Of a DNA stretch of 64,000 nt, positions 2,755-61,806 are shown piece by piece. The stretch covers positions 104,663 through 168,662 of the forward strand of contig JASGCN010000001.1 of the NCBI GenBank assembly GCA_030054135.1, in the 5' to 3' direction. Source of the DNA: Alphaproteobacteria bacterium (GTDB lineage Bacteria; Patescibacteriota; Minisyncoccia; Phycocordibacterales; JABAAK01). The translations under genes and the position numbers were made by a program. The notes beneath the pieces were generated by a model. The model saw only the letters and a program-made list of their open reading frames with translations, was not told the DNA's origin and searched no databases. Numbering within the stretch: position 1 is the first letter of the stretch; each line of letters opens with the position of its first letter.

Positions 2755-4881
2755 TTATTCCTCCATTAATACGGAGCGTCTTTGTAATTCTTTTTCAGTT
2801 GCTTGAGGCAGGGGAGATGAAAGAGTTTTTTCAGCATACCCTTGAGCATATTCAACAAGTTTAATATTTTTCATTGCCTCCATTGCAAGATCGGGAAGTC
2901 CTGACTGTACATTTCCTGCGTAGTGTCCTGCGCCACGCATATTAAAATCTTCTTGTGCGAGATCAAATCCATTATGGTTTTTTTCAAAAATGCTAAGTCT
3001 TTTTTGAGTTAATTCGTTTTGAGAATCAGTTATTGCAAAACAGTATGGTTGATGTGTTGAACGGATGACGCGTCCGCGTAGTTGATGTAATTGCGAAAGC
3101 CCAAACCTATCACTGTGCAGTATGATAATACTGGTAGCATTAGGAACATTTACACCAACTTCAACAACGGTAGTGGATACTAGTATGTGTATCTTGCCAG
3201 CACGAAATTTTTCAAGCACTTCATCTTTATCTGTTTTTTTAAGTTTGCTATGCAGTGAGCCAATGACTACATCAGGGAACACACTTTTTTTAAGATAGGC
3301 CGCTTCTTCATCAACACTTCTTAATTTTAATTCAGTATCTTCATCTGTATGTTCACTAATACGCGGGCATATAATGTACGCTTGGCGTCCTGATGTTATT
3401 TCTTTACGAATGTGTTCGTATGCGAGAGCTATTTCTTTTTGTGTAAGCACTTTTGTGTGTACTGGTTTTCTTCCTTTTGGCATTTCATCTAGGATAGAAA
3501 TATCCATATCCCCAAACATGGTAAGCGCTAATGTACGAGGAATTGGGGTAGCAGTCATTGAAAGCATATGGGGGATATGTTTATGCTCAGTGAGTAATTT
3601 TTGTCTTTGGGCTACACCAAATCGGTGTTGTTCATCAACAATAGCAAGAGCTAAATGTTTGAATACGACATTTTTTTGCACCAAGGCATGAGTACCAACA
3701 ACCACATTAATAGTGCCGTCTTTCAACCACTCAAGCATTTTCTTTTTTGATATGTTTGCAGATACTTCAGCATATACTTTTGACGGATATTTTAAACATT
3801 CTTTGCTTGTGAGAAGAGCAATAGATATAGGTAAATGATTAAATAGAGAAAGTAATGTTTCGTACTGTTGTCGAGCAAGTATTTCAGTTGGTGCAAGATA
3901 TGCAATTTGAAATCGAGGATATTCAGAATGCTCCCAGACTTGTGTGAGTATTGCATAGATCACAGCTCCCGCAACAGCGGTTTTTCCACTTCCTACATCA
4001 CCTTCAAGAAGGCGTGCCATGGGGGTTTGTTTATTGAGATCGGCTATTATTTCTGTGATGACAGTACGCTGCGCTTGTGTTGGAATAAATTCAAATCGCT
4101 CGTTCATAAATGTATCAATATGTTTTTTGTTAATTGATATAGGAAATGTTTTTGTAAGAGATCGTTCGCGTTTTTCTTTTTTTTGTATAAGCTGTAAAAA
4201 ATATATTTCTTCAAAAATAAATCTTTTTTTAGCTCGTTCATAGGCGTCCACAGTTTTGGGCATGTGTATGCCACGCATAGCATCATACCAATCAGGCAAA
4301 TGCAGTTCTTTTTTTATATATTCTGGAATTGGGTCAGGAGTTTCTTTTATGTCTTGATCGAGAAGAATTTTTTTAATCCGTTCTCGTATAAAAAGTGAAG
4401 ATATTCCATATGTTTCTTTATACCAACACAAAAGTGTTTCATTGGGTGAAGAAAATGATACTGGTGTTTTATTTTCTTCTATAACTGGATTTGTCATATA
4501 CAGTCCTTTATTTGTATCTGATACAGTACCAATTAAAGTAACAGCCATACCACTTTCATATTGTTTTGCAATATAAGGTTGGTGAAACCAAATGGCAGTG
4601 AGCGTCCTGCGTCCTGTTTGTTGTGGGATTTCAATTTTTGCTTCTGTGAGCATAACTCTTTTTGCTCCCATACCTCTGCGCATACGAATACTTTTAATAA
4701 CACCAGAGTAGGTACCTTCTTTTTTTGGAGATTGAGTATCAGACAATTCATGAGTAGTAATACTTTTCGGCACATAGTATAGCAAGTCTCGAACTGTCGT
4801 AATGCCTATGCGTTCAAGAGCATCTCGTTTGTCTTTCGTAATGTGTTCAAGTGTTTTATATAGAGAAGATAAAGATGCCAT
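2755..4881 (-). CDS. recG: ATP-dependent DNA helicase RecG
   Basis: 708 aa; wedge domain then SF2 helicase motifs GDVGSGKTAVAG, DEQHRFGV, TATPIPRTL; typical RecG length. Confidence 0.9.
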   Translation of the reverse strand: MASLSSLYKTLEHITKDKRDALERIGITTVRDLLYYVPKSITTHELSDTQSPKKEGTYSGVIKSIRMRRGMGAKRVMLTEAKIEIPQQTGRRTLTAIWFHQPYIAKQYESGMAVTLIGTVSDTNKGLYMTNPVIEENKTPVSFSSPNETLLCWYKETYGISSLFIRERIKKILLDQDIKETPDPIPEYIKKELHLPDWYDAMRGIHMPKTVDAYERAKKRFIFEEIYFLQLIQKKEKRERSLTKTFPISINKKHIDTFMNERFEFIPTQAQRTVITEIIADLNKQTPMARLLEGDVGSGKTAVAGAVIYAILTQVWEHSEYPRFQIAYLAPTEILARQQYETLLSLFNHLPISIALLTSKECLKYPSKVYAEVSANISKKKMLEWLKDGTINVVVGTHALVQKNVVFKHLALAIVDEQHRFGVAQRQKLLTEHKHIPHMLSMTATPIPRTLALTMFGDMDISILDEMPKGRKPVHTKVLTQKEIALAYEHIRKEITSGRQAYIICPRISEHTDEDTELKLRSVDEEAAYLKKSVFPDVVIGSLHSKLKKTDKDEVLEKFRAGKIHILVSTTVVEVGVNVPNATSIIILHSDRFGLSQLHQLRGRVIRSTHQPYCFAITDSQNELTQKRLSIFEKNHNGFDLAQEDFNMRGAGHYAGNVQSGLPDLAMEAMKNIKLVEYAQGYAEKTLSSPLPQATEKELQRRSVLMEE

Positions 4882-10747: not shown

Positions 10748-12349
10748 ATGTTGTTTTCTGTCACTGATATAGCAAAAAGTTTTGGGCCCCATGATGTTTT
10801 TTCAAATCTTTCTTTTAGAGTAGACGAAGGGCAAAAAATTGCACTCGTTGGTGAAAATGGTGTTGGAAAGAGTACTCTTTTGAAGTGTATTGCAGGAATA
10901 GAAGAGGTCGATGCAGGTACAATTGATATTGCAGATGGCAGACGGATTGCATACCTTCCTCAAGAAATATCCATAGAAGATTCACGCACGACAAAAGAAT
11001 ATGTACAAAGCTCTGCACAAGGACAATTTGAAGAACACAAGGTATTTGCTCTTATGGATGGGTTTGGACTTTCTCAACATGTATGGGTGACCCCACTTCA
11101 GAAATTATCTGGTGGACAAAAATCAAAAGTATTATTTTTAAGATTTTTACTTGAAGATGCTGATGTGTATTTGTTAGATGAACCAACAAATAATCTAGAT
11201 ATGAAAGCGCTTCTGTGGCTTGAAGCGTATCTATCACAAACAAAAAAATCTATGCTTATTATTTCTCACGATGTGTATTTTTTGAAGCGAGTTGCGAATC
11301 GAGTGATTGAATTAACAGGAGAAGATGGCATTTCTTCTTCTCGGGGGAGTTATGCTGATTATTTAGAACGGAAAGATAAACATTTTTTACAACAAATGCA
11401 AGCGTATAAAGAATACAGAAAAAAAATGACTCAATTAGAAAAAACAAGTCGTAGCATACAAGATAAACAAAAAGATATAGACACGCATGAGACATCTGAC
11501 TCAGATAAATATACTTCTGGATTTCAAAAAGATCGTGCAACATCTGGCATGTCACAGTCTCAAGTGTTAAAAAAGAAAATGGAACAAATTGAAATAGTAG
11601 AAAAACCATTTGAAGAAGATGTTTATGAAATAGAAATACAGTCAAAATATTTAGAAACTGATTTATCAATTCGATTAAAAGATGTAGTCGCAGGGTATAA
11701 GCACGCTCATAACAAAAGAGGATCCCTTGCTATTGGCCCATTTTCAACAACATTAACTCCAGGAAAACGAATATGTATTATGGGAGGAAATGGAGAAGGG
11801 AAAACAACACTTATCAAGACAATACTCGGTGATCTTAATCCACTTGAAGGAACAATTGATATAAGTGAAAACATTATTTTCGGGGATCTTCTTCAACAGC
11901 AAGAACGTGCAGAAAGAAGTAAAACAGTAATTGAATTTATGATGTCAGAAACACATTGCAATGAAGAACGAGCTAGGCATATTCTTAAAAAATATCATCT
12001 CCCAGAAAATATTTTTTATGCAAAAATAGAAGGGTTGTCTTCTGGGACACGAGCGAGGCTTCTCATTGCGTGTTTTGCAGTATTGGGTGTAAATACTCTT
12101 GTGCTTGATGAACCAACCAACCATCTCGACATAGAAGGTGTTCGTGCAATTGTACAAATGTTAGATTCTTATAAAGGAATAGTAATAATAATCTCACACA
12201 ACAGGTGGTTTCTTGAACAAGTACGAATAGACGAATATTTTTCTCTTAAAGACGGTACTCTTGAAAGAATAGCAGATATTGAAAAATATATTACAGATGC
12301 AAAAGCAGAATCTGCTAAAATGGTGAAAAAAATAGCAAGATTAGTTTAG
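10748..12349 (+). CDS. ABC-F family ATPase (two ABC cassettes, no TM domain), copy 1
   Basis: Two Walker A (GENGVGKST, GGNGEGKTT), two LSGGQ signatures and two Walker B (LLDEPTNNLD, VLDEPTNHLD) with a charged inter-domain linker; 533 aa. Confidence 0.9.
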   Translation: MLFSVTDIAKSFGPHDVFSNLSFRVDEGQKIALVGENGVGKSTLLKCIAGIEEVDAGTIDIADGRRIAYLPQEISIEDSRTTKEYVQSSAQGQFEEHKVFALMDGFGLSQHVWVTPLQKLSGGQKSKVLFLRFLLEDADVYLLDEPTNNLDMKALLWLEAYLSQTKKSMLIISHDVYFLKRVANRVIELTGEDGISSSRGSYADYLERKDKHFLQQMQAYKEYRKKMTQLEKTSRSIQDKQKDIDTHETSDSDKYTSGFQKDRATSGMSQSQVLKKKMEQIEIVEKPFEEDVYEIEIQSKYLETDLSIRLKDVVAGYKHAHNKRGSLAIGPFSTTLTPGKRICIMGGNGEGKTTLIKTILGDLNPLEGTIDISENIIFGDLLQQQERAERSKTVIEFMMSETHCNEERARHILKKYHLPENIFYAKIEGLSSGTRARLLIACFAVLGVNTLVLDEPTNHLDIEGVRAIVQMLDSYKGIVIIISHNRWFLEQVRIDEYFSLKDGTLERIADIEKYITDAKAESAKMVKKIARLV

Positions 12350-12397: not shown

Positions 12398-13999
12398 ATG
12401 TTGTTTTCTGTCACCGATATGGCAAAAAGTTTTGGACCACGTGAGGTATTAGCCAAGATATCTTTTAAGGTGGACGAAGGGCATAAAATAGCTGTAGTTG
12501 GAGAAAACGGTGTCGGTAAAAGCACTTTGCTTAAATGCATTATAGGAATTGAAGATATAGACAATGGAGAGATAATTATTGCAGACGGAAAGAAAATTGC
12601 ATATTTACCACAAGAAATTCCACTTGAAGATAACAGAACTGTTGAAGAGTACATACAAGATTCAAAGCACGGACTATTTGAAAAACATAAAATTTTTCCA
12701 TTTATGGATGGGTTTGGTCTTTTTGAAGAAATATATACAGTAAATCTCCAAAAACTCTCCGGAGGACAAAAATCAAAAGTACTTTTTATCAAATTTTTAC
12801 TTGAAAATGCAGATGTGTATTTGCTTGATGAGCCGACCAACAACTTAGACATGAAGTCACTCCTTTGGATTGAGGAATATTTAGCCCAAGAGAAAAAATC
12901 AATGCTTATAATTTCTCATGATTTATATTTTCTAAAAAAAGTTGCAAATCGTGTACTTGAAATAAATGGATTAGAAGGTGCAGAATTTTCTAGAGGGTCA
13001 TACGCCGATTATCTTGAAAGAAAAGAAAAAAAGTATTTAGAAGAACTCCAAGCATACAAAGACTATCAAAAAAAGTTTACACAACTTAAAAAATTAAGAA
13101 GAATCGTGCAAAATAGGCAACAAATGATAGACAATATTGATGGAGAGACTTGTGAGATAAAGTCAGCTGATCTGATAAGGGAAGCCATTAGCAGGGAAAT
13201 GCATATTTCACGGGTGTTAAAAAAAAGAATGGAAATGCTAGAAGTTGCTGAAAAACCATTCGAAGAAGAACTATATGTTATCGAGATTCATCCAAAAAAT
13301 TTAGAAAAAAATCCATCAATTAGTTTAAAAGATGTAGTTGCAGGATATAAAGTATCACACAACAAAAAAGGAACTCTAAGAATCGGTCCGTTTTCTGCAA
13401 ACCTTACACCAGGAAAACGAATATGTATTATGGGAGGAAATGGAGAAGGGAAAACAACACTTGTAAAAACAATTTTAGGAGTGCTCTCTCCATTGGACGG
13501 AGAGCTGAAGGTAAGTGAAAATATTGTTTTTGGAGATTTACTTCAACAACAAGAACGTGCGGAGAGAAGCAAAACTGTTATTGAATTTGTTACATCTCAA
13601 ACTGATTTAAACAAAGAAAGAGTTCATCATATGATAAAAAAATATCATTTACCTGAAGGTGTTTTTAATGCAAAAATAGAGGGGCTATCTTCCGGTACTC
13701 GTGCGAGATTACTCCTTGCATGTTTTGCTTCAATTGGCGTAAACACTTTAATTCTTGATGAACCAACTAACAACTTAGACATATCAGGTGTTCGTGCAAT
13801 TGTACAAATGTTAGATTCTTATAAAGGAATAGTAATAATAATCTCACACAACAGGTGGTTTCTTGAACAAGTACGAATAGACGAATATTTTTCTCTAGAG
13901 GAAGGAACACTTACTCGAATTGAGGACATTCAACAGTATATTACTTCTGCTCAAATAGAAACAGAAAAAATGATAAAACGAATCTCGCGTCTTGTGTAA
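12398..13999 (+). CDS. ABC-F family ATPase, copy 2 (paralog of 10748..12349)
   Basis: Same architecture and length (533 aa); paralog with mosaic identical nucleotide tracts. Confidence 0.9.
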   Translation: MLFSVTDMAKSFGPREVLAKISFKVDEGHKIAVVGENGVGKSTLLKCIIGIEDIDNGEIIIADGKKIAYLPQEIPLEDNRTVEEYIQDSKHGLFEKHKIFPFMDGFGLFEEIYTVNLQKLSGGQKSKVLFIKFLLENADVYLLDEPTNNLDMKSLLWIEEYLAQEKKSMLIISHDLYFLKKVANRVLEINGLEGAEFSRGSYADYLERKEKKYLEELQAYKDYQKKFTQLKKLRRIVQNRQQMIDNIDGETCEIKSADLIREAISREMHISRVLKKRMEMLEVAEKPFEEELYVIEIHPKNLEKNPSISLKDVVAGYKVSHNKKGTLRIGPFSANLTPGKRICIMGGNGEGKTTLVKTILGVLSPLDGELKVSENIVFGDLLQQQERAERSKTVIEFVTSQTDLNKERVHHMIKKYHLPEGVFNAKIEGLSSGTRARLLLACFASIGVNTLILDEPTNNLDISGVRAIVQMLDSYKGIVIIISHNRWFLEQVRIDEYFSLEEGTLTRIEDIQQYITSAQIETEKMIKRISRLV

Positions 14000-28001: not shown

Positions 28002-31000
28002 ATGTCCAATTCTGATGAATCTAAAAAAATTCAACCCATACTTAACCCAGAAGAACGGGAAACATCTATTCTTTCATTTTGGTACACGCATCACATTTTT
28101 GAGCGTTCTCAAGATGGGATCCCCCCAGAAACAGTGTGGCAACGAATAGCGGAAAAAATTTTTGGAAAAAAAGAATATGTTTTTTTTGATGGGCCACCAT
28201 TTGCAACTGGGCTTCCACACATGGGGCATATCCTCGCAGGAGCAATAAAAGATTCAATCGCACGATATAAAACAATGAGAGGATTTATAGTGAAACGCCG
28301 TTGGGGGTGGGATTGTCATGGTCTACCAGTTGAACAATTTGTTGAACAAGAATTAGGTATCAATAAAAAAGAAGAAATAGAAAAATTAGGTATTGGAGTA
28401 TTTAATGCGCATGCTCGAAAAAGTGTACTTACCTTTCGTGATGAATGGAAAAAATTTGTTGATCGTATGGGTCGATTTGTTGATATGGAAAACGACTATA
28501 AAACAATGGATACCACATATATGCTTTCGGTGTGGCATATATTTTCACTTTTATTTAAAAAAGGATTAGTACATGAAGGACATCGGGTTATGCAATATTG
28601 TCCTCGTTGTGAGACGACTCTTTCAAACAATGAAGTATCAGAAGGGTACAAAGATGTAACAGATATTACAGTAACAGTATCCCTTCCTACGCAGCACAAT
28701 GTCTCATTGGTAGTCTGGACCACTACTCCATGGACACTCCCAGGGAATATGGCGGTTGCAATGAATAAAAATATTGAGTATGTGCGATCCAGTACAGAAA
28801 AAGGGGATGTTATCACTTCAAAGAAATATGCAGAAAAAAACAATTTATCCATCAAAGAAAAAGTCTCACACACTGATTTGTTGCAGTATCGGTACACCCC
28901 TCCATTTGCATATACAAAAACAAAATCAAATGAAAAATGTTTTAAAGTGTATCACGCAGATTTTGTTACTGAAGAAGGCGGTACTGGGTTAGTACACATT
29001 GCCCCATGTTATGGAGCGGATGACTACGCTCTTGCAAAAGAACACCTTCTTCCAATTGAACATCACATTACTACCAGTGGATGTTTTATCAAAGAATTGG
29101 AAATGTTTCATGGAATGGAAGTCAAAAAAAAAGATGACACACAGTCGGCAGATATTGAAGTAATTAAATATCTTGCCCATGTGGGTAGTCTGTTTGCAAA
29201 AGAAAAAATAGTACACAGTTATCCACACTGTTGGCGATGTAAGGTCCCTCTTCTTAATTACGCACTTTCAACTTGGTTTATTGATAGACCTGCGTATAAA
29301 CAAGATCTCATAGATGCAAACAAAACTATTCATTGGGTGCCTGATCATATCCGAGATGGCCGATTTGGTAATCTTCTTGTAGAGATTCCAGAATGGGCTT
29401 TCGCGCGTACTCGTTTTTGGGGAACAGCAATTCCTATTTGGAAAAATGATGCTACGGGAAAGATTATTGTCATTGATGGTATCCAAACACTAAAACAGTA
29501 TTTGCCTAAAAATAACACTGTCTATGTTGTTCGTCATGGAGAAGCAGAAAATAATATACAAAACATTCACAATATTTCAGATAAAGAAAAAATTTGTCAT
29601 CTCACAGAAAAGGGAAGAAAACAAGCACACGACGCTGGTGTATCATTGAAAAATGCAAAAATCGATTACATTATTACTTCTCCCCTTACTCGAACACGAG
29701 AAACAGCACAAGCAATCGCTGAAGCAATTGGGTATCCGACAGAGCGTATCATTGTTGATATTGATTTACAAGAAGTACAAGCAAAGATAGATAATATGTC
29801 TTTTGCAAGTTTTATCGAGATATACGAGAAAGTATACGGAATTCATAATGCATTTTCTATTCATGGGGTAGAATCAAAGTTGGATGTGTATATGCGTACT
29901 ATGAAAGTATTAAAAAAAATACATGCTACGTACAAAAACAAAAATATTTTAATTGTTTCCCACGCAAGTAGTATATATGCGGCTCAATTAATAAATGACG
30001 GGCTTCCTCTACAGTCAACGTGGGATGAACATAAGGGGAGTTGGTATGACAGATATTCCACCCTACACGCAGACCCTATACGTCTTGAGTATCGAGATTT
30101 TCCAACAAATGAAAAAGGCGAAATTGATTTTCATCGCCCATATGTGGATACACTTGTTCTTACTGATACACAAGGAAATTCATATACTCGTATAAAAGAA
30201 GTTTTTGATTGTTGGTTTGAAAGTGGCGCAATGCCATACGCGCAACATGGGTATCCAGACGCGTACTCTTCAAAAGATTTCAATCCAAAACAACATAAAG
30301 GGTTTCCTGCTGATTTCATTGCAGAAGGATTAGATCAAACACGCGGATGGTTTAATAGTTTACTTGCAGTTGGGGTGGGAGCTTTTAATGAAACACCATA
30401 CAAGTCAGTTATTGTAAACGGATTAGTATTGGATCCTAAAGGAAAAAAAATGTCTAAAAGTGAAAAAAATTATACCTCTCCAATGGAGTTATTCAACATG
30501 TATAGTGCAGATGCAGTACGACACTATATGCTCAATTCTCCAGTAGTTCGTGGTGAAAATCTTCTTTTTGAAGATGAAGGTGTGTCTACGGTTGCAAAAA
30601 AAATGATTAATCGATTGCTTAATTGTGTGGTCTATTACACAACATATGCCAATTTTGATGTATCAAAACAAAAATCTTCTGTTTATATTGATACATGGAT
30701 CATGGCACGATTAGAACGAACGGCAGACACTGTCACTAAAGGATATGAAGATCTTGCAATTGACGAAGCAGTGCACCCACTTGAATTATTCATTGATGAT
30801 CTTTCTACATGGTATGTACGAAGATGTAGAGATCGTCTTAAAGAAAACTCTCAAGATGGCGCATACGCACGGGGGACGCTTCAATATGTATTGCTAGAAC
30901 TAAGTAAACTTATGGCCCCATCAATGCCGTTTGTTTCAGAACATGTGTATCAAATTCTTCGAACTGATGATATGCCAGTGAGTGTGCATTTGTGCCGATG

Positions 31001-31481
31001 GCCGAGTATTTCTTTTACTAATACATCGACACTTGAAAGAATGGCGTTAGTTCGTGGGTTAGTTTCTGAAGCGCTTGAGGCACGCGCGTCCGCGGGAATA
31101 AAAGTGCGCCAACCACTTGCATCTCTTACTGTGCCTGTCCTGCTTTCTACAGAAGAGCAATTTTTATTATTAGATGAATTAAATGTAAAAGAAATTAAAC
31201 ACGGGCATGCATGTATTCTTGATACAACAATTACAAAAGAACTTTTTGAAGAAGGAATATTAAGAGATACTGTTCGTTCTGTTCAAGATCTCAGAAAAAA
31301 ACATGGGTGCTCATCTCATGAGTTAATTGAATCAGTTGAAATATTGTCAGGAGAAGTAGGAGACATTATTGGGCGCAATGAAGAGATGTTTCTAAAAGAA
31401 GTACGAGCAAAATCATTACGAGTGCTACCTCTTCAATTAGAAGTAACAAAAGAACAACCAATTCGTATTAGTGTGCAATAA
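28002..31481 (+). CDS. ileS: isoleucyl-tRNA synthetase (type 2, eukaryote-like) with an in-frame histidine-phosphatase (PGAM-like) domain insertion
   Basis: GPPFATGLPHMGHIL (HIGH), WTTTPWTLPGN editing-domain motif, FDCWFESGAMPYAQ, KMSKS. Inserted ~180 aa carrying VYVVRHGEAENN, LTEKGRKQA, ITSPLTRTRETAQ and LIVSHASSIYAAQL (both catalytic His motifs of the histidine phosphatase superfamily). Confidence 0.9.
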   Translation: MSNSDESKKIQPILNPEERETSILSFWYTHHIFERSQDGIPPETVWQRIAEKIFGKKEYVFFDGPPFATGLPHMGHILAGAIKDSIARYKTMRGFIVKRRWGWDCHGLPVEQFVEQELGINKKEEIEKLGIGVFNAHARKSVLTFRDEWKKFVDRMGRFVDMENDYKTMDTTYMLSVWHIFSLLFKKGLVHEGHRVMQYCPRCETTLSNNEVSEGYKDVTDITVTVSLPTQHNVSLVVWTTTPWTLPGNMAVAMNKNIEYVRSSTEKGDVITSKKYAEKNNLSIKEKVSHTDLLQYRYTPPFAYTKTKSNEKCFKVYHADFVTEEGGTGLVHIAPCYGADDYALAKEHLLPIEHHITTSGCFIKELEMFHGMEVKKKDDTQSADIEVIKYLAHVGSLFAKEKIVHSYPHCWRCKVPLLNYALSTWFIDRPAYKQDLIDANKTIHWVPDHIRDGRFGNLLVEIPEWAFARTRFWGTAIPIWKNDATGKIIVIDGIQTLKQYLPKNNTVYVVRHGEAENNIQNIHNISDKEKICHLTEKGRKQAHDAGVSLKNAKIDYIITSPLTRTRETAQAIAEAIGYPTERIIVDIDLQEVQAKIDNMSFASFIEIYEKVYGIHNAFSIHGVESKLDVYMRTMKVLKKIHATYKNKNILIVSHASSIYAAQLINDGLPLQSTWDEHKGSWYDRYSTLHADPIRLEYRDFPTNEKGEIDFHRPYVDTLVLTDTQGNSYTRIKEVFDCWFESGAMPYAQHGYPDAYSSKDFNPKQHKGFPADFIAEGLDQTRGWFNSLLAVGVGAFNETPYKSVIVNGLVLDPKGKKMSKSEKNYTSPMELFNMYSADAVRHYMLNSPVVRGENLLFEDEGVSTVAKKMINRLLNCVVYYTTYANFDVSKQKSSVYIDTWIMARLERTADTVTKGYEDLAIDEAVHPLELFIDDLSTWYVRRCRDRLKENSQDGAYARGTLQYVLLELSKLMAPSMPFVSEHVYQILRTDDMPVSVHLCRWPSISFTNTSTLERMALVRGLVSEALEARASAGIKVRQPLASLTVPVLLSTEEQFLLLDELNVKEIKHGHACILDTTITKELFEEGILRDTVRSVQDLRKKHGCSSHELIESVEILSGEVGDIIGRNEEMFLKEVRAKSLRVLPLQLEVTKEQPIRISVQ

Positions 31482-45940: not shown

Positions 45941-46093
45941 TTGCATTCAATATTCGTATGGAGTATTCTACAGAGGTAGTTCCAAAGACAGTAGGAGAGT
46001 GAAGCTCTTAAATAGTCCTACCGAGGTTTATTCTTTTCTAGTAATAGAAAAACTTTTTGGCTACAGGATAGTATTATATTAATTACACACAGT
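45941..46093 (+). promoter_or_regulatory. candidate promoter (TTGCAT-17-TATTCT at 45941..45969) plus ~125-nt structured 5' leader of rplJ (possible L10 autoregulatory leader)
   Basis: Hexamers read directly; long untranslated leader before rplJ as in L10(L12)4-regulated operons; no specific leader motif verified. Confidence 0.35.
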
Positions 46094-61516: not shown

Positions 61517-61542
61517 CACTTGAAGTACCGTTTTATTATTTG

Positions 61543-61616
61543 TGTCGACGGGTGGACTTGCACCACCGACCTTAGCGTTATGAATGCTATGCTCTAACTA
61601 CCTGAGCTACGCCGAC
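61543..61616 (-). tRNA. tRNA with CAU anticodon (elongator Met or lysidine Ile2)
   Basis: Reverse complement folds: acceptor gtcggcg/cgtcgac (one G-U), D arm gctc-aggtagtta-gagc, anticodon loop TTCATAA, T arm ggtgg-TGCAAGT-ccacc; A31-C39 mismatch in anticodon stem. Confidence 0.7.
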
Positions 61617-61724: not shown

Positions 61725-61798
61725 GACGGAGTAGAGCAGTCAGGTAGCTCGCCAGGCTCATAACCTGGAGGTCCTTGGTTCAAATCCAAGCTCCGTCA
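61725..61798 (+). tRNA. tRNA with CAU anticodon (elongator Met or Ile2; lacks initiator features)
   Basis: Acceptor gacggag/ctccgtc (G1-C72 paired), D arm gagc-agtcaggta-gctc, anticodon arm ccagg-CTCATAA-cctgg, T arm cttgg-TTCAAAT-ccaag. Confidence 0.8.
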
Positions 61799-61806
61799 CA
61801 ATATAT

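What the first reader, a model, noticed from the sequence alone, without database searches (positions are those of the whole stretch)
29500..30080. Histidine-phosphatase (PGAM-like) domain inserted in-frame into isoleucyl-tRNA synthetase
The ileS ORF (28002..31481) is continuous, but between the conserved segment ending ...IVIDGIQTLKQYL and the conserved YRDFP...FDCWFESGAMPYAQ segment it carries ~180 extra residues. The insert contains both catalytic motifs of the histidine phosphatase / phosphoglycerate mutase superfamily (VYVVRHGEAENN and LIVSHASSIYAAQL) plus the intervening LTEKGRKQA and ITSPLTRTRETAQ segments. Canonical type-2 IleRS has only ~30 residues at this position. This is a domain insertion, not an intein: there is no Cys/Ser-...-HN splicing boundary and the motifs are PGAM-like. 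A phosphatase fused inside an aminoacyl-tRNA synthetase catalytic core is not an architecture I know to be described. It could act on a nucleotide or a phosphorylated intermediate (Ap4A or ppGpp-like alarmone hydrolysis, tRNA 3' phosphate or 2',3'-cyclic phosphate removal), or be a moonlighting regulatory module.
Basis: partly seen in the sequence, partly recalled or inferred. Interest (0 to 1): 0.7.

Follow-up and report, generated by a model that had tools for sequence, protein, structure and literature searches.

The report
Phosphatase domain nested inside isoleucyl-tRNA synthetase
The isoleucyl-tRNA synthetase in this window carries a complete, apparently active histidine-phosphatase enzyme inside a surface loop, an unreported architecture shared by a large family of ultra-small (CPR/Paceibacteria) bacteria, and what the phosphatase acts on is unknown.

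Summary
ORF 28002..31481 (1159 aa) is one continuous type-2 IleRS (TIGR00392 777 bits, cutoff 621). It has a complete His_Phos_1 domain (PF00300, E=6e-30) at aa 502-706, replacing a ~12-residue connective-peptide loop. It is not an artefact, intein or one-off. All 120 best full-length homologues, and ~160 clusters at 50% identity, carry it, including complete Patescibacteria genomes. The catalytic residues R511/H512/R564/E591/H654 are 97-100% conserved. Insert dN/dS is 0.05-0.17, like the core, and the insert co-diverges with the core. In relatives the same phosphatase subfamily also sits at two other IleRS loops, occurs in tandem arrays of two to four, or is a separate gene directly upstream of an insert-less ileS in three lineages. 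This argues that proximity to IleRS is selected. By sequence and fold it is closest to small-molecule phosphomonoesterases (PspA, PhoE, GpgP, CobC), not mutases or protein phosphatases. The substrate is unknown. Eight literature searches found no description, and public annotation says only 'class I tRNA ligase family protein'. Verdict: a real, widespread, undescribed bifunctional aaRS architecture, and a new variant of a known kind. Interest 0.66.

The parts
28002..31481 (+). ileS ORF, 1159 aa plus stop: a type-2 (eukaryote-like) isoleucyl-tRNA synthetase carrying the nested phosphatase
   Evidence: Continuous ORF. TIGR00392 ileS scores 777.6 bits against a cutoff of 621.4. Pfam finds tRNA-synt_1, Anticodon_1 and DUF5915. 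Foldseek of the AF2 model against IleRS2 structures gives TMt 0.78-0.86. The exact protein is NCBI MDI9325301.1.
28002..29504 (+). IleRS N-terminal part (aa 1-501): first half of the HUP/Rossmann core with HIGH (HMGH, nt 28218-28229), the CP1 editing domain (WTTTPWTLPGN, GTGLVHIAP..D) and the first part of the connective peptide
   Evidence: Aligns to 8C8U residues 25-472.
29505..30119 (+). Inserted histidine-phosphatase module (aa 502-706), a complete His_Phos_1 fold. The Pfam core is aa 507-675, nt 29520-30026.
29532..29540 (+). RHG motif (R511-H512-G513). H512 is the predicted phospho-accepting nucleophile.
   Evidence: R and H are 100% conserved and G is 96% conserved in 120 homologues. 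R and H are invariant in all 160 copies examined.
29691..29693 (+). R564, the second phosphate-binding arginine
   Evidence: 100% conserved
29772..29774 (+). E591, the predicted general acid/base
   Evidence: 97% Glu in 120 homologues. It is E or D in nearly all 160 copies, with one Ala.
29961..29963 (+). H654, the second catalytic histidine (SH motif)
   Evidence: 100% conserved
30120..31478 (+). IleRS C-terminal part (aa 707-1159): the end of the connective peptide (DFHRPYVD), the second half of the HUP core (FDCWFESG; KMSKS at nt 30447-30461), and the anticodon-binding and C-terminal domains
   Evidence: Aligns to 8C8U residues 485-846 and 935-975. Pfam finds Anticodon_1 at 897-1039 and DUF5915 at 1070-1140.

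Best explanation
The gene encodes a two-enzyme polypeptide. The host is a complete type-2 IleRS with all signature motifs, and presumably charges tRNA-Ile as usual. A complete branch-1 histidine phosphatase of about 200 aa is nested in a surface loop of its connective-peptide region. The loop lies between the two halves of a zinc knuckle and is about 12 residues long in P. megaterium IleRS2. The catalytic set R511/H512/R564/E591/H654 is intact, so the module should hydrolyse a phosphomonoester through a phospho-His512 intermediate. The insertion is old and vertically inherited, and it is shared by a large family of Patescibacteria (Paceibacteria/Parcubacteria) IleRS enzymes. Selection appears to act on proximity or co-expression of this phosphatase with IleRS, not on one fixed geometry. 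The same phosphatase subfamily is found at three different IleRS loops, in tandem arrays, or as a separate gene immediately upstream of an insert-less ileS. What is shown: the architecture, its spread, catalytic-residue conservation, purifying selection, and the genetic linkage. What is inferred: that both activities are real, and that the substrate is most likely a small phosphorylated metabolite or nucleotide, as for PspA, PhoE, GpgP and CobC. My split for the substrate is about 0.4 small molecule, 0.2 a tRNA-end or aminoacylation-linked phosphate, 0.15 a phosphoprotein such as IleRS itself, and the remainder other or none.
For: Domain identity and completeness. IleRS integrity (HIGH, KMSKS, editing motifs, TIGR00392 above cutoff, fold match). 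Spread: all 120 best full-length homologues (1125-1201 aa, 43-47% identity) carry PF00300. In the census, 163 representatives at 50% identity score E<=1e-30. Of the 149 listed and parsed, 137 carry one phosphatase copy and 12 carry two to four, and most match as one stretch across both junctions. Loci include the complete genome CP011215 and the chromosome-level MAGs OZ241963 and OY764332. Catalytic residues are 97-100% conserved in 120 sequences and kept in all 160 copies. Insert dN/dS is 0.05-0.17 against 0.035-0.16 for the core. Insert and core identities co-vary (Pearson 0.82, shuffled control 0.07). Alternative sites B and C, tandem copies and a four-copy protein. A free-standing phosphatase of the same subfamily (140-156 bits against the insert HMM) lies directly upstream of, and co-oriented with, an insert-less ileS in L030, L059 and the L081/L082/L086-L091 lineage. 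The nearest relatives are small-molecule phosphomonoesterases. The full-length AF2 model has pLDDT 90.3 and pTM 0.87.
Against: No activity has been measured for either domain. Nothing identifies the substrate. All NCBIfam equivalog cutoffs are missed (CobC 73.7 against 162.9, PspA 64.7 against 350, dPGM_arch 69.9 against 225). Linkage to IleRS is not absolute. L085 has an 82%-identical free-standing phosphatase next to argS with no ileS within 5 kb, and many Patescibacteria IleRS enzymes have neither an insert nor a neighbouring phosphatase. In tightly packed CPR genomes adjacency can be fortuitous. The same IleRS loops occasionally hold unrelated enzymes (GNAT, a P-loop kinase-like domain, a serine hydrolase), so they may simply be permissive loops. 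I could not read model coordinates, so the position of the phosphatase active site relative to the IleRS active site or the tRNA path is unknown. The module is not consistently basic (median pI 6.5), which gives no support for RNA binding.
Confidence: 0.7

Rival explanations
1. tRNA-end or aminoacylation-coupled repair. The tethered phosphatase removes a blocking 2'/3'-terminal phosphate (or pyrophosphate) from the CCA end of tRNA, for example after nuclease or toxin damage, so that IleRS can charge it.
For: The phosphatase is physically or genetically tied to an enzyme that handles the tRNA 3' end, at several sites and in multiple copies. Sites A and C lie in or next to the catalytic and connective-peptide region. 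One relative (P0266) combines the phosphatase with a P-loop kinase-like insert, which recalls kinase-phosphatase RNA end-healing enzymes. That match is weak: AAA_18 E=1e-7, and Pnkp1 4XRP only E=0.058. From memory, the E. coli CCA-adding enzyme carries an HD-domain phosphatase for tRNA-end repair, which would be a precedent.
Against: The nearest sequence and fold relatives act on small molecules. The module is not consistently basic. Site B is at the junction with the anticodon-binding domain, far in sequence from the acceptor-end site. A repair activity useful for all tRNAs has no obvious reason to be tied to IleRS alone. The superfamily acts on phosphomonoesters, so cyclic phosphates are excluded (established knowledge).
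Confidence: 0.15
2. Cis-acting protein phosphatase. The module keeps IleRS (for example the serine of the KMSKS loop) or a nearby translation factor free of inhibitory phosphorylation, acting as a built-in antidote to HipA-like kinases or as a regulatory switch.
Against: Protein phosphatases are more distant than small-molecule phosphatases in both sequence and fold. No kinase gene was seen next to ileS in the window or in the loci examined. Tandem arrays of two to four active copies are hard to explain for a single cis target.
Confidence: 0.1
3. Neutral or 'hitch-hiking' fusion. A housekeeping metabolic phosphatase (for example a phosphoserine or sugar-phosphate phosphatase) that happened to lie next to ileS became embedded in permissive loops. 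It works independently of IleRS, and the fusion only guarantees expression.
For: The nearest relatives are metabolic phosphatases. The free-standing gene lies next to ileS in some lineages, which gives an easy route to fusion. The same loops accept unrelated enzymes. The more distant free-standing relative P0241 sits among pentose-phosphate genes.
Against: Insertion into three different internal loops, plus tandem amplification, plus retention across about 160 diverged clusters under strong purifying selection, is more than a single accidental fusion would predict. Simple co-expression would more easily be achieved by a terminal fusion or an operon.
Confidence: 0.25
4. Artefact or non-functional element: an assembly chimera, a frameshift, an intein or other mobile insertion, or a catalytically dead structural spacer.
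For: None beyond the unusual architecture. The window protein has lost the zinc-knuckle cysteines that flank the site.
Against: The ORF is continuous. There is no GC shift or flanking repeat and no intein domain. The architecture recurs in hundreds of independent assemblies, including complete genomes. Catalytic residues are invariant. dN/dS is 0.05-0.17. The fold prediction is confident.
Confidence: 0.02

Closest known systems
Type-2 (eukaryote-like, mupirocin-resistant) IleRS, e.g. Priestia megaterium IleRS2 (PDB 8C8U/8C8V; PMC10485003) and T. thermophilus IleRS (1ILE)
   Same: The host enzyme matches throughout: phmmer E=1.8e-188 and Foldseek TMt 0.78-0.86. It has HIGH, KMSKS, the CP1 editing domain, the anticodon-binding domain and the type-2 C-terminal domains.
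   Different: The solved enzymes have about 12 residues (Pm 473-485) where the window protein has a ~205-residue phosphatase domain. No solved IleRS carries such an insert. The window protein also lacks the four zinc-knuckle cysteines.
Small-molecule branch-1 histidine phosphatases: Hydrogenobacter PspA phosphoserine phosphatase (4IJ5), Geobacillus PhoE (1H2E), mycobacterial GpgP (6S2Q), CobC alpha-ribazole phosphatase (6E4B)
   Different: Identity is only 17-24%. Every NCBIfam equivalog cutoff is missed. Those enzymes are free-standing, whereas this one is nested inside an aaRS. The substrate cannot be transferred by homology.
NCBIfam NF040702 'ileS_w_GNAT' (IleRS containing an N-acetyltransferase domain)
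   Same: It is a curated precedent for an IleRS that carries an extra catalytic domain. One relative of the window protein (P0345) carries GNAT inserts and the phosphatase insert together.
   Different: The window protein has no GNAT and scores 315.9 bits against the family cutoff of 1999. The accessory chemistry is different. I found no paper on either architecture.
Other bifunctional proteins with a His_Phos_1 module: 6-phosphofructo-2-kinase/fructose-2,6-bisphosphatase, and the mycobacterial RNase H/acid phosphatase (NF005567, Rv2228c type)
   Different: Those are end-to-end fusions. Here the phosphatase interrupts the host's catalytic region, and the partner is an aminoacyl-tRNA synthetase.

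Membership tests
Histidine phosphatase superfamily, branch 1 (Pfam PF00300 His_Phos_1) | Profile match above Pfam's gathering score | tested here: met
   99.9 bits in the full protein and 104.7 bits for the insert alone, against a cutoff of 21.7. The match covers profile positions 1-168 of 194.
Histidine phosphatase superfamily, branch 1 (Pfam PF00300 His_Phos_1) | RHG motif with the nucleophilic histidine, two phosphate-binding arginines, a second histidine, and an acidic proton donor | tested here: met
   R511-H512-G513, R564, H654 and E591 are present and 97-100% conserved in 120 homologues and in 160 copies.
Histidine phosphatase superfamily, branch 1 (Pfam PF00300 His_Phos_1) | The alpha/beta/alpha fold of the superfamily | tested here: met
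Histidine phosphatase superfamily, branch 1 (Pfam PF00300 His_Phos_1) | Phosphomonoesterase or mutase activity through a phospho-histidine intermediate | not testable with these tools
   Needs an enzyme assay and an H512A control.
Cofactor-dependent phosphoglycerate mutase proper (dPGM) | Score above the curated dPGM family cutoffs, and full-length mutase architecture | tested here: not met
PspA-type phosphoserine phosphatase / CobC alpha-ribazole phosphatase (nearest named families) | Score above the NCBIfam equivalog cutoff | tested here: not met
   PspA NF045917 scores 64.7 against 350. CobC TIGR03162 scores 73.7 against 162.9.
Isoleucyl-tRNA synthetase (TIGR00392), type 2 | Equivalog score above the cutoff | tested here: met
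   777.6 bits against 621.4, in two stretches split by the insert.
Isoleucyl-tRNA synthetase (TIGR00392), type 2 | Class I signature motifs HIGH and KMSKS, and CP1 editing-site motifs | tested here: met
   HMGH is at aa 73-76 and KMSKS at 816-820. WTTTPWTLPGN and GTG.VH.AP..D are invariant in the family.
Isoleucyl-tRNA synthetase (TIGR00392), type 2 | Overall fold and type-2 C-terminal domains | tested here: met
   Foldseek to 8C8U/8C8V gives E about 1e-75 to 1e-77 and TMt 0.78-0.79, and 0.86 to 1ILE. Anticodon_1 and DUF5915 are present.
Isoleucyl-tRNA synthetase (TIGR00392), type 2 | Aminoacylation of tRNA-Ile, and being the cell's only IleRS | not testable with these tools
   There is no second ileS in the 64-kb window. 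Whole genomes could not be scanned.
Intein | Hint domain, a Cys/Ser at the N-terminal junction, and His-Asn plus Cys/Ser/Thr at the C-terminal junction | tested here: not met
   There is no Hint or intein Pfam match. The junction residues are L501/P502 and G706/E707. The insert is a complete phosphatase fold.
NCBIfam NF040702 ileS_w_GNAT | Score above the cutoff and presence of a GNAT domain | tested here: not met
   315.9 bits against 1999. There is no acetyltransferase Pfam hit in the window protein.

The most novel reading that the evidence does not exclude
The phosphatase is an integral accessory activity of aminoacylation in these bacteria. It would be a built-in repair or antidote module that removes a blocking phosphate from the tRNA 3' end or from IleRS itself (for example the KMSKS-loop serine), or destroys a phosphorylated IleRS-directed inhibitor. 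That would make it a new class of aaRS-embedded activity alongside editing domains. The recurrent capture of the same phosphatase at three loops, in arrays of up to four copies, and sometimes together with GNAT, kinase-like or hydrolase inserts, would then reflect an arms race centred on IleRS.
Probability: 0.2. Interest if true: 0.9.

Novelty: new variant of a known kind. Interest (0 to 1): 0.66.

Why it matters
Aminoacyl-tRNA synthetases are among the best-studied enzymes. Their known bacterial accessory domains are editing, tRNA-binding and zinc modules. Here an active-looking phosphatase is nested in the catalytic region of an essential synthetase, conserved under purifying selection across a major bacterial radiation, re-inserted at other loops, amplified in tandem, and operon-linked where it is not fused. 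That implies a functional connection between phosphate-ester hydrolysis and isoleucine charging that is not part of current aaRS biology. CPR bacteria have minimal genomes and rarely keep dispensable domains, so the module probably does something important for them. The question is directly testable with recombinant protein, because complete-genome orthologues exist. It also has a practical side. NCBI names these proteins only 'class I tRNA ligase family protein', so metabolic reconstructions of Paceibacteria may be missing both a correctly named IleRS and a phosphatase.

Tried and rejected
- **Assembly chimera or frameshift:** rejected.
- **Intein or recent mobile insertion:** rejected. There is no Hint domain, no repeats and no GC shift, the divergence is ancient, and the insert co-varies with the core.
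- **True phosphoglycerate mutase:** rejected on family cutoffs and ranking.
- **Defence-system link:** PADLOC gave no hit for the insert or the free-standing forms.
- **Insert replaces the zinc knuckle:** rejected. 49 of 95 insert-bearing enzymes keep all four cysteines and 36 have none, so there is no correlation.
- **Basic, RNA-binding surface as a family trait:** not seen (median pI 6.5).
- **A theme from the rarer co-inserted domains:** inconclusive. They are a generic P-loop kinase fold (best PDB E=0.02), generic GNATs and a YdeN-type serine hydrolase.
- **Insert-only word-indexed homologue search:** returned a single hit.
- **Metagenome scan with a mixed alignment:** The single-protein scan worked.
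- **AFDB search:** the library was unavailable.
- **Phylogenies:** NJ trees of the phosphatase copies and of the IleRS cores are poorly resolved and have no support values. They only suggest that insert-bearing forms are basal within the Patescibacteria clade.
- **L085 ORF in the ileS slot:** it is not a diverged IleRS.
- **Literature:** eight searches found nothing on an aaRS with a histidine phosphatase. The 2026 IleRS domain-evolution preprint and the 2026 domain-insertion survey do not mention it.
Full report
**Observation.** The + strand ORF 28002..31481 is continuous and encodes 1159 aa. Pfam finds tRNA-synt_1 split in two, His_Phos_1 (PF00300) at aa 507-675, Anticodon_1 at 897-1039 and DUF5915 at 1070-1140. 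The His_Phos_1 match has E=1.9e-28 in the full protein and 6.2e-30 for the insert alone, which is 100-105 bits against a cutoff of 21.7. NCBIfam's ileS equivalog TIGR00392 scores 777.6 bits against a cutoff of 621.4, in two stretches. Against P. megaterium IleRS2 (8C8U), the alignment stops at query aa 495 (chain residue 472) and resumes at query aa 707 (chain residue 485). So about 205 residues stand where the solved enzyme has about 12. Base composition is flat across the junctions and there are no flanking repeats. No intein domain is detected.

**Where it sits in IleRS.** PMC10485003 defines the PmIleRS2 catalytic (HUP) core as residues 40-168 and 513-632, separated by the connective peptides CP1 (with the editing domain) and CP2. 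Residues 473-485 therefore fall in the connective-peptide stretch, just before the chain returns to the second half of the core. I take this to be CP2. That assignment is my inference from the residue ranges, because the paper gives no CP1/CP2 boundary. In many relatives the site is bracketed by CxxC ... CxC, a zinc knuckle. The window protein has none of these cysteines, while 49 of 95 insert-bearing relatives keep all four, so the knuckle and the insert are independent. HIGH (HMGH 73-76), KMSKS (816-820) and the CP1 editing motifs are intact. The full-length AlphaFold model is confident (pLDDT 90.3, pTM 0.87). Its host part superposes on IleRS2 structures with TMt 0.78-0.86, and no solved IleRS has the insert.

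**It is a family trait, not an accident.** The exact protein is NCBI MDI9325301.1, 'class I tRNA ligase family protein [Alphaproteobacteria bacterium]', on a 206.8-kb contig. All 120 best full-length homologues carry PF00300 together with the IleRS domains. They are 1125-1201 aa long, 43-47% identical, and named Kaiserbacteria, Pacebacteria, Paceibacteria, Parcubacteria or Patescibacteria where named at all. An exhaustive phmmer search of 1.84 billion representatives, using a query that spans both junctions, found 163 clusters at E<=1e-30. Of the 149 listed and parsed, 137 carry one phosphatase copy, and most match as one stretch across both junctions. In one-genome-per-species contigs the insert is present in Wolfebacteria, Kaiserbacteria and Campbellbacteria (complete genome CP011215) and in chromosome-level Paceibacterota MAGs. 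It is absent from other Patescibacteria and from Chlamydiae, Myxococcota and Planctomycetota type-2 IleRS. The window itself has CPR-like content: type IV pilus genes, small ORFs and 36% GC. The 'Alphaproteobacteria' label therefore looks wrong.

**The module looks like a working enzyme.** Across 120 homologues that share about 41% identity in the insert and 62% in the core, R511, H512, R564 and H654 are 100% conserved. N518 is 99% conserved, E591 is 97% and G513 is 96%. dN/dS of the insert is 0.05-0.17 wherever dS is unsaturated (for example 0.049 for L015/L018 and for L095/L099). This is the same range as the core, 0.035-0.16. Insert and core identities co-vary (Pearson 0.82, shuffled control 0.07), as expected for long vertical co-inheritance.

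**Evidence that the phosphatase is tied to IleRS.**
- HMMs of the insert and of the two core halves show the same phosphatase subfamily at other places in relatives.
  - Site C lies after WFESG..YP, around window aa 750-763 (P0300, P0305, P0292, P0361, P0364).
  - Site B lies just before the anticodon-binding domain, around window aa 890 (P0310, P0362, P0284, P0305, P0300).
  - Tandem pairs occur at site A (P0318, P0327, P0386, P0369), and P0316 has four copies.
- All 160 copies keep the catalytic Arg/His set.
- In three lineages whose IleRS lacks the insert, a free-standing phosphatase of 187-190 aa lies directly upstream on the same strand. It scores 140-156 bits against the insert HMM, as high as true inserts.
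  - L030: argS, then the phosphatase, then a 31-nt gap, then a 924-aa ileS.
  - L059: the same order, with a frameshifted phosphatase.
  - The L081/L082/L086-L091 lineage.
- There are exceptions. L085 has an 82%-identical phosphatase after argS, but an unrelated 624-aa ORF sits where ileS would be. The more distant P0241 lies among pentose-phosphate genes. Many Patescibacteria IleRS enzymes have no phosphatase at all.
- In an NJ tree of IleRS cores rooted on non-CPR enzymes, insert-bearing forms are basal and paraphyletic, and the insert-less forms nest within them, including those with an adjacent phosphatase. This hints at an ancestral association with later fission or loss. Branches are short and unsupported, so I treat it only as a suggestion.

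**What kind of phosphatase.**

| Comparison | Nearest matches | More distant matches |
|---|---|---|
| Profile against PDB sequences | PspA phosphoserine phosphatase 4IJ5 (1.5e-27), PhoE 1H2E (1.6e-25), CobC, TIGAR, GpgP | true mutases |

No named NCBIfam family cutoff is reached. PADLOC has nothing. The module is not consistently basic. The superfamily's phospho-histidine chemistry acts on phosphomonoesters (established knowledge).

**Mechanism, committed.** I read this as a bifunctional polypeptide. It is a normal type-2 IleRS plus an active phosphomonoesterase, and co-localisation or co-expression of the phosphatase with IleRS is itself under selection (confidence about 0.7). For the substrate I favour a small phosphorylated metabolite or nucleotide (about 0.4) over a tRNA-end or aminoacylation-linked phosphate (about 0.2) or a phosphoprotein such as IleRS's own KMSKS loop (about 0.15). 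A purely neutral hitch-hiking fusion remains a serious rival (0.25). It explains the adjacency and the permissive loops, which also hold GNAT, a P-loop kinase-like domain and a serine hydrolase in single relatives. It explains the repeated re-insertion and tandem amplification less well. I could not obtain model coordinates, so the geometry between the active sites is unknown.

**Novelty.** Eight full-text searches found no description of an aaRS with a histidine-phosphatase domain. Two recent papers are the most likely places for it to have been noted: a 2026 preprint on IleRS domain evolution and a 2026 survey of domain insertions. Neither mentions it. Subscription-only literature was not searchable. 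The sequences have been public for years with generic names. NCBIfam already models an IleRS with a GNAT domain, so accessory enzymes inside IleRS are a known kind. The phosphatase version, its spread and its multi-site recurrence are new. I rate it a new variant of a known kind, with interest 0.66.

Noticed in passing
window 1-64000 (whole contig; protein MDI9325301.1): NCBI labels the source MAG 'Alphaproteobacteria bacterium'. However, the IleRS's relatives are all Patescibacteria/Paceibacteria. The window also has CPR-like content: 36% GC, a type IV pilus cluster at about 48.6-53.4 kb, and small tightly packed same-strand genes. The label is probably a mis-binning or mis-classification.
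   Followed up: partly
P0310, P0362, P0284, P0305, P0300 (site B); P0300, P0305, P0292, P0361, P0364 (site C); P0318, P0327, P0386, P0369 (tandem); P0316 (four copies): Relatives carry the same phosphatase subfamily at two other IleRS loops: just before the anticodon-binding domain, and after WFESG..YP. Others carry two to four copies. All copies have intact catalytic residues.
   Followed up: yes
P0345 aa 280-420 and 908-1072; P0266 aa 725-912; P0362 aa 552-750: Other enzymes are nested in the same IleRS loops. P0345 has two GNAT acetyltransferase domains, one within CP1 and one at site C, in addition to the phosphatase. P0266 has a P-loop kinase-like domain (AAA_18/AAA_33/Zeta/CPT-like). P0362 has a PF06821 serine hydrolase. 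Their roles are unknown.
   Followed up: partly
L030 2614-3177; L081 5001-5567; L059 about 4067-4569: A free-standing phosphatase of the insert subfamily lies directly upstream of an insert-less ileS, preceded by argS in L030 and L059. The L059 copy is frameshifted, either a pseudogene or a sequencing error.
   Followed up: yes
L085 2862-4736: In a contig with the order argS, phosphatase, X, recO, DUF11, the slot normally held by ileS is occupied by a 624-aa ORF. It has no Pfam match and no similarity to IleRS.
   Followed up: partly
L084 1102-4635 (P0007): An insert-bearing ileS is broken into four consecutive ORFs on a long-read contig (ctg634011l). This is probably from frameshift errors and not a genuinely split gene.
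   Followed up: no
window 10748-12349 and 12398-13999: Two tandem paralogous 533-aa ORFs with near-identical N-termini (MLFSVTDIAKSFGP.. and MLFSVTDMAKSFGP..). By their Walker-A motif (GENGVGKST) they look like ABC-F-type ATPases. This is a recent tandem duplication.
   Followed up: no
window 61542-61616 (-) and 61725-61799 (+): Two divergently oriented tRNA genes with anticodon CAT lie about 110 nt apart. One may be the initiator, or the tRNA-Ile2 that needs lysidine, which would be a substrate of the IleRS studied here. They were not distinguished.
   Followed up: no
window 45964-46087: An Rfam L10_leader (RF00557, 53.6 bits) lies upstream of rplJ/rplL. rplK, by contrast, sits 18 kb away, next to nusG and ileS.
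   Followed up: no
window 29400-29470 and 30130-30200 (aa about 478-490 and 716-730): The window IleRS has lost all four zinc-knuckle cysteines that flank the insertion site. About half of the insert-bearing relatives, and all enzymes with an adjacent phosphatase gene, keep them.
   Followed up: yes
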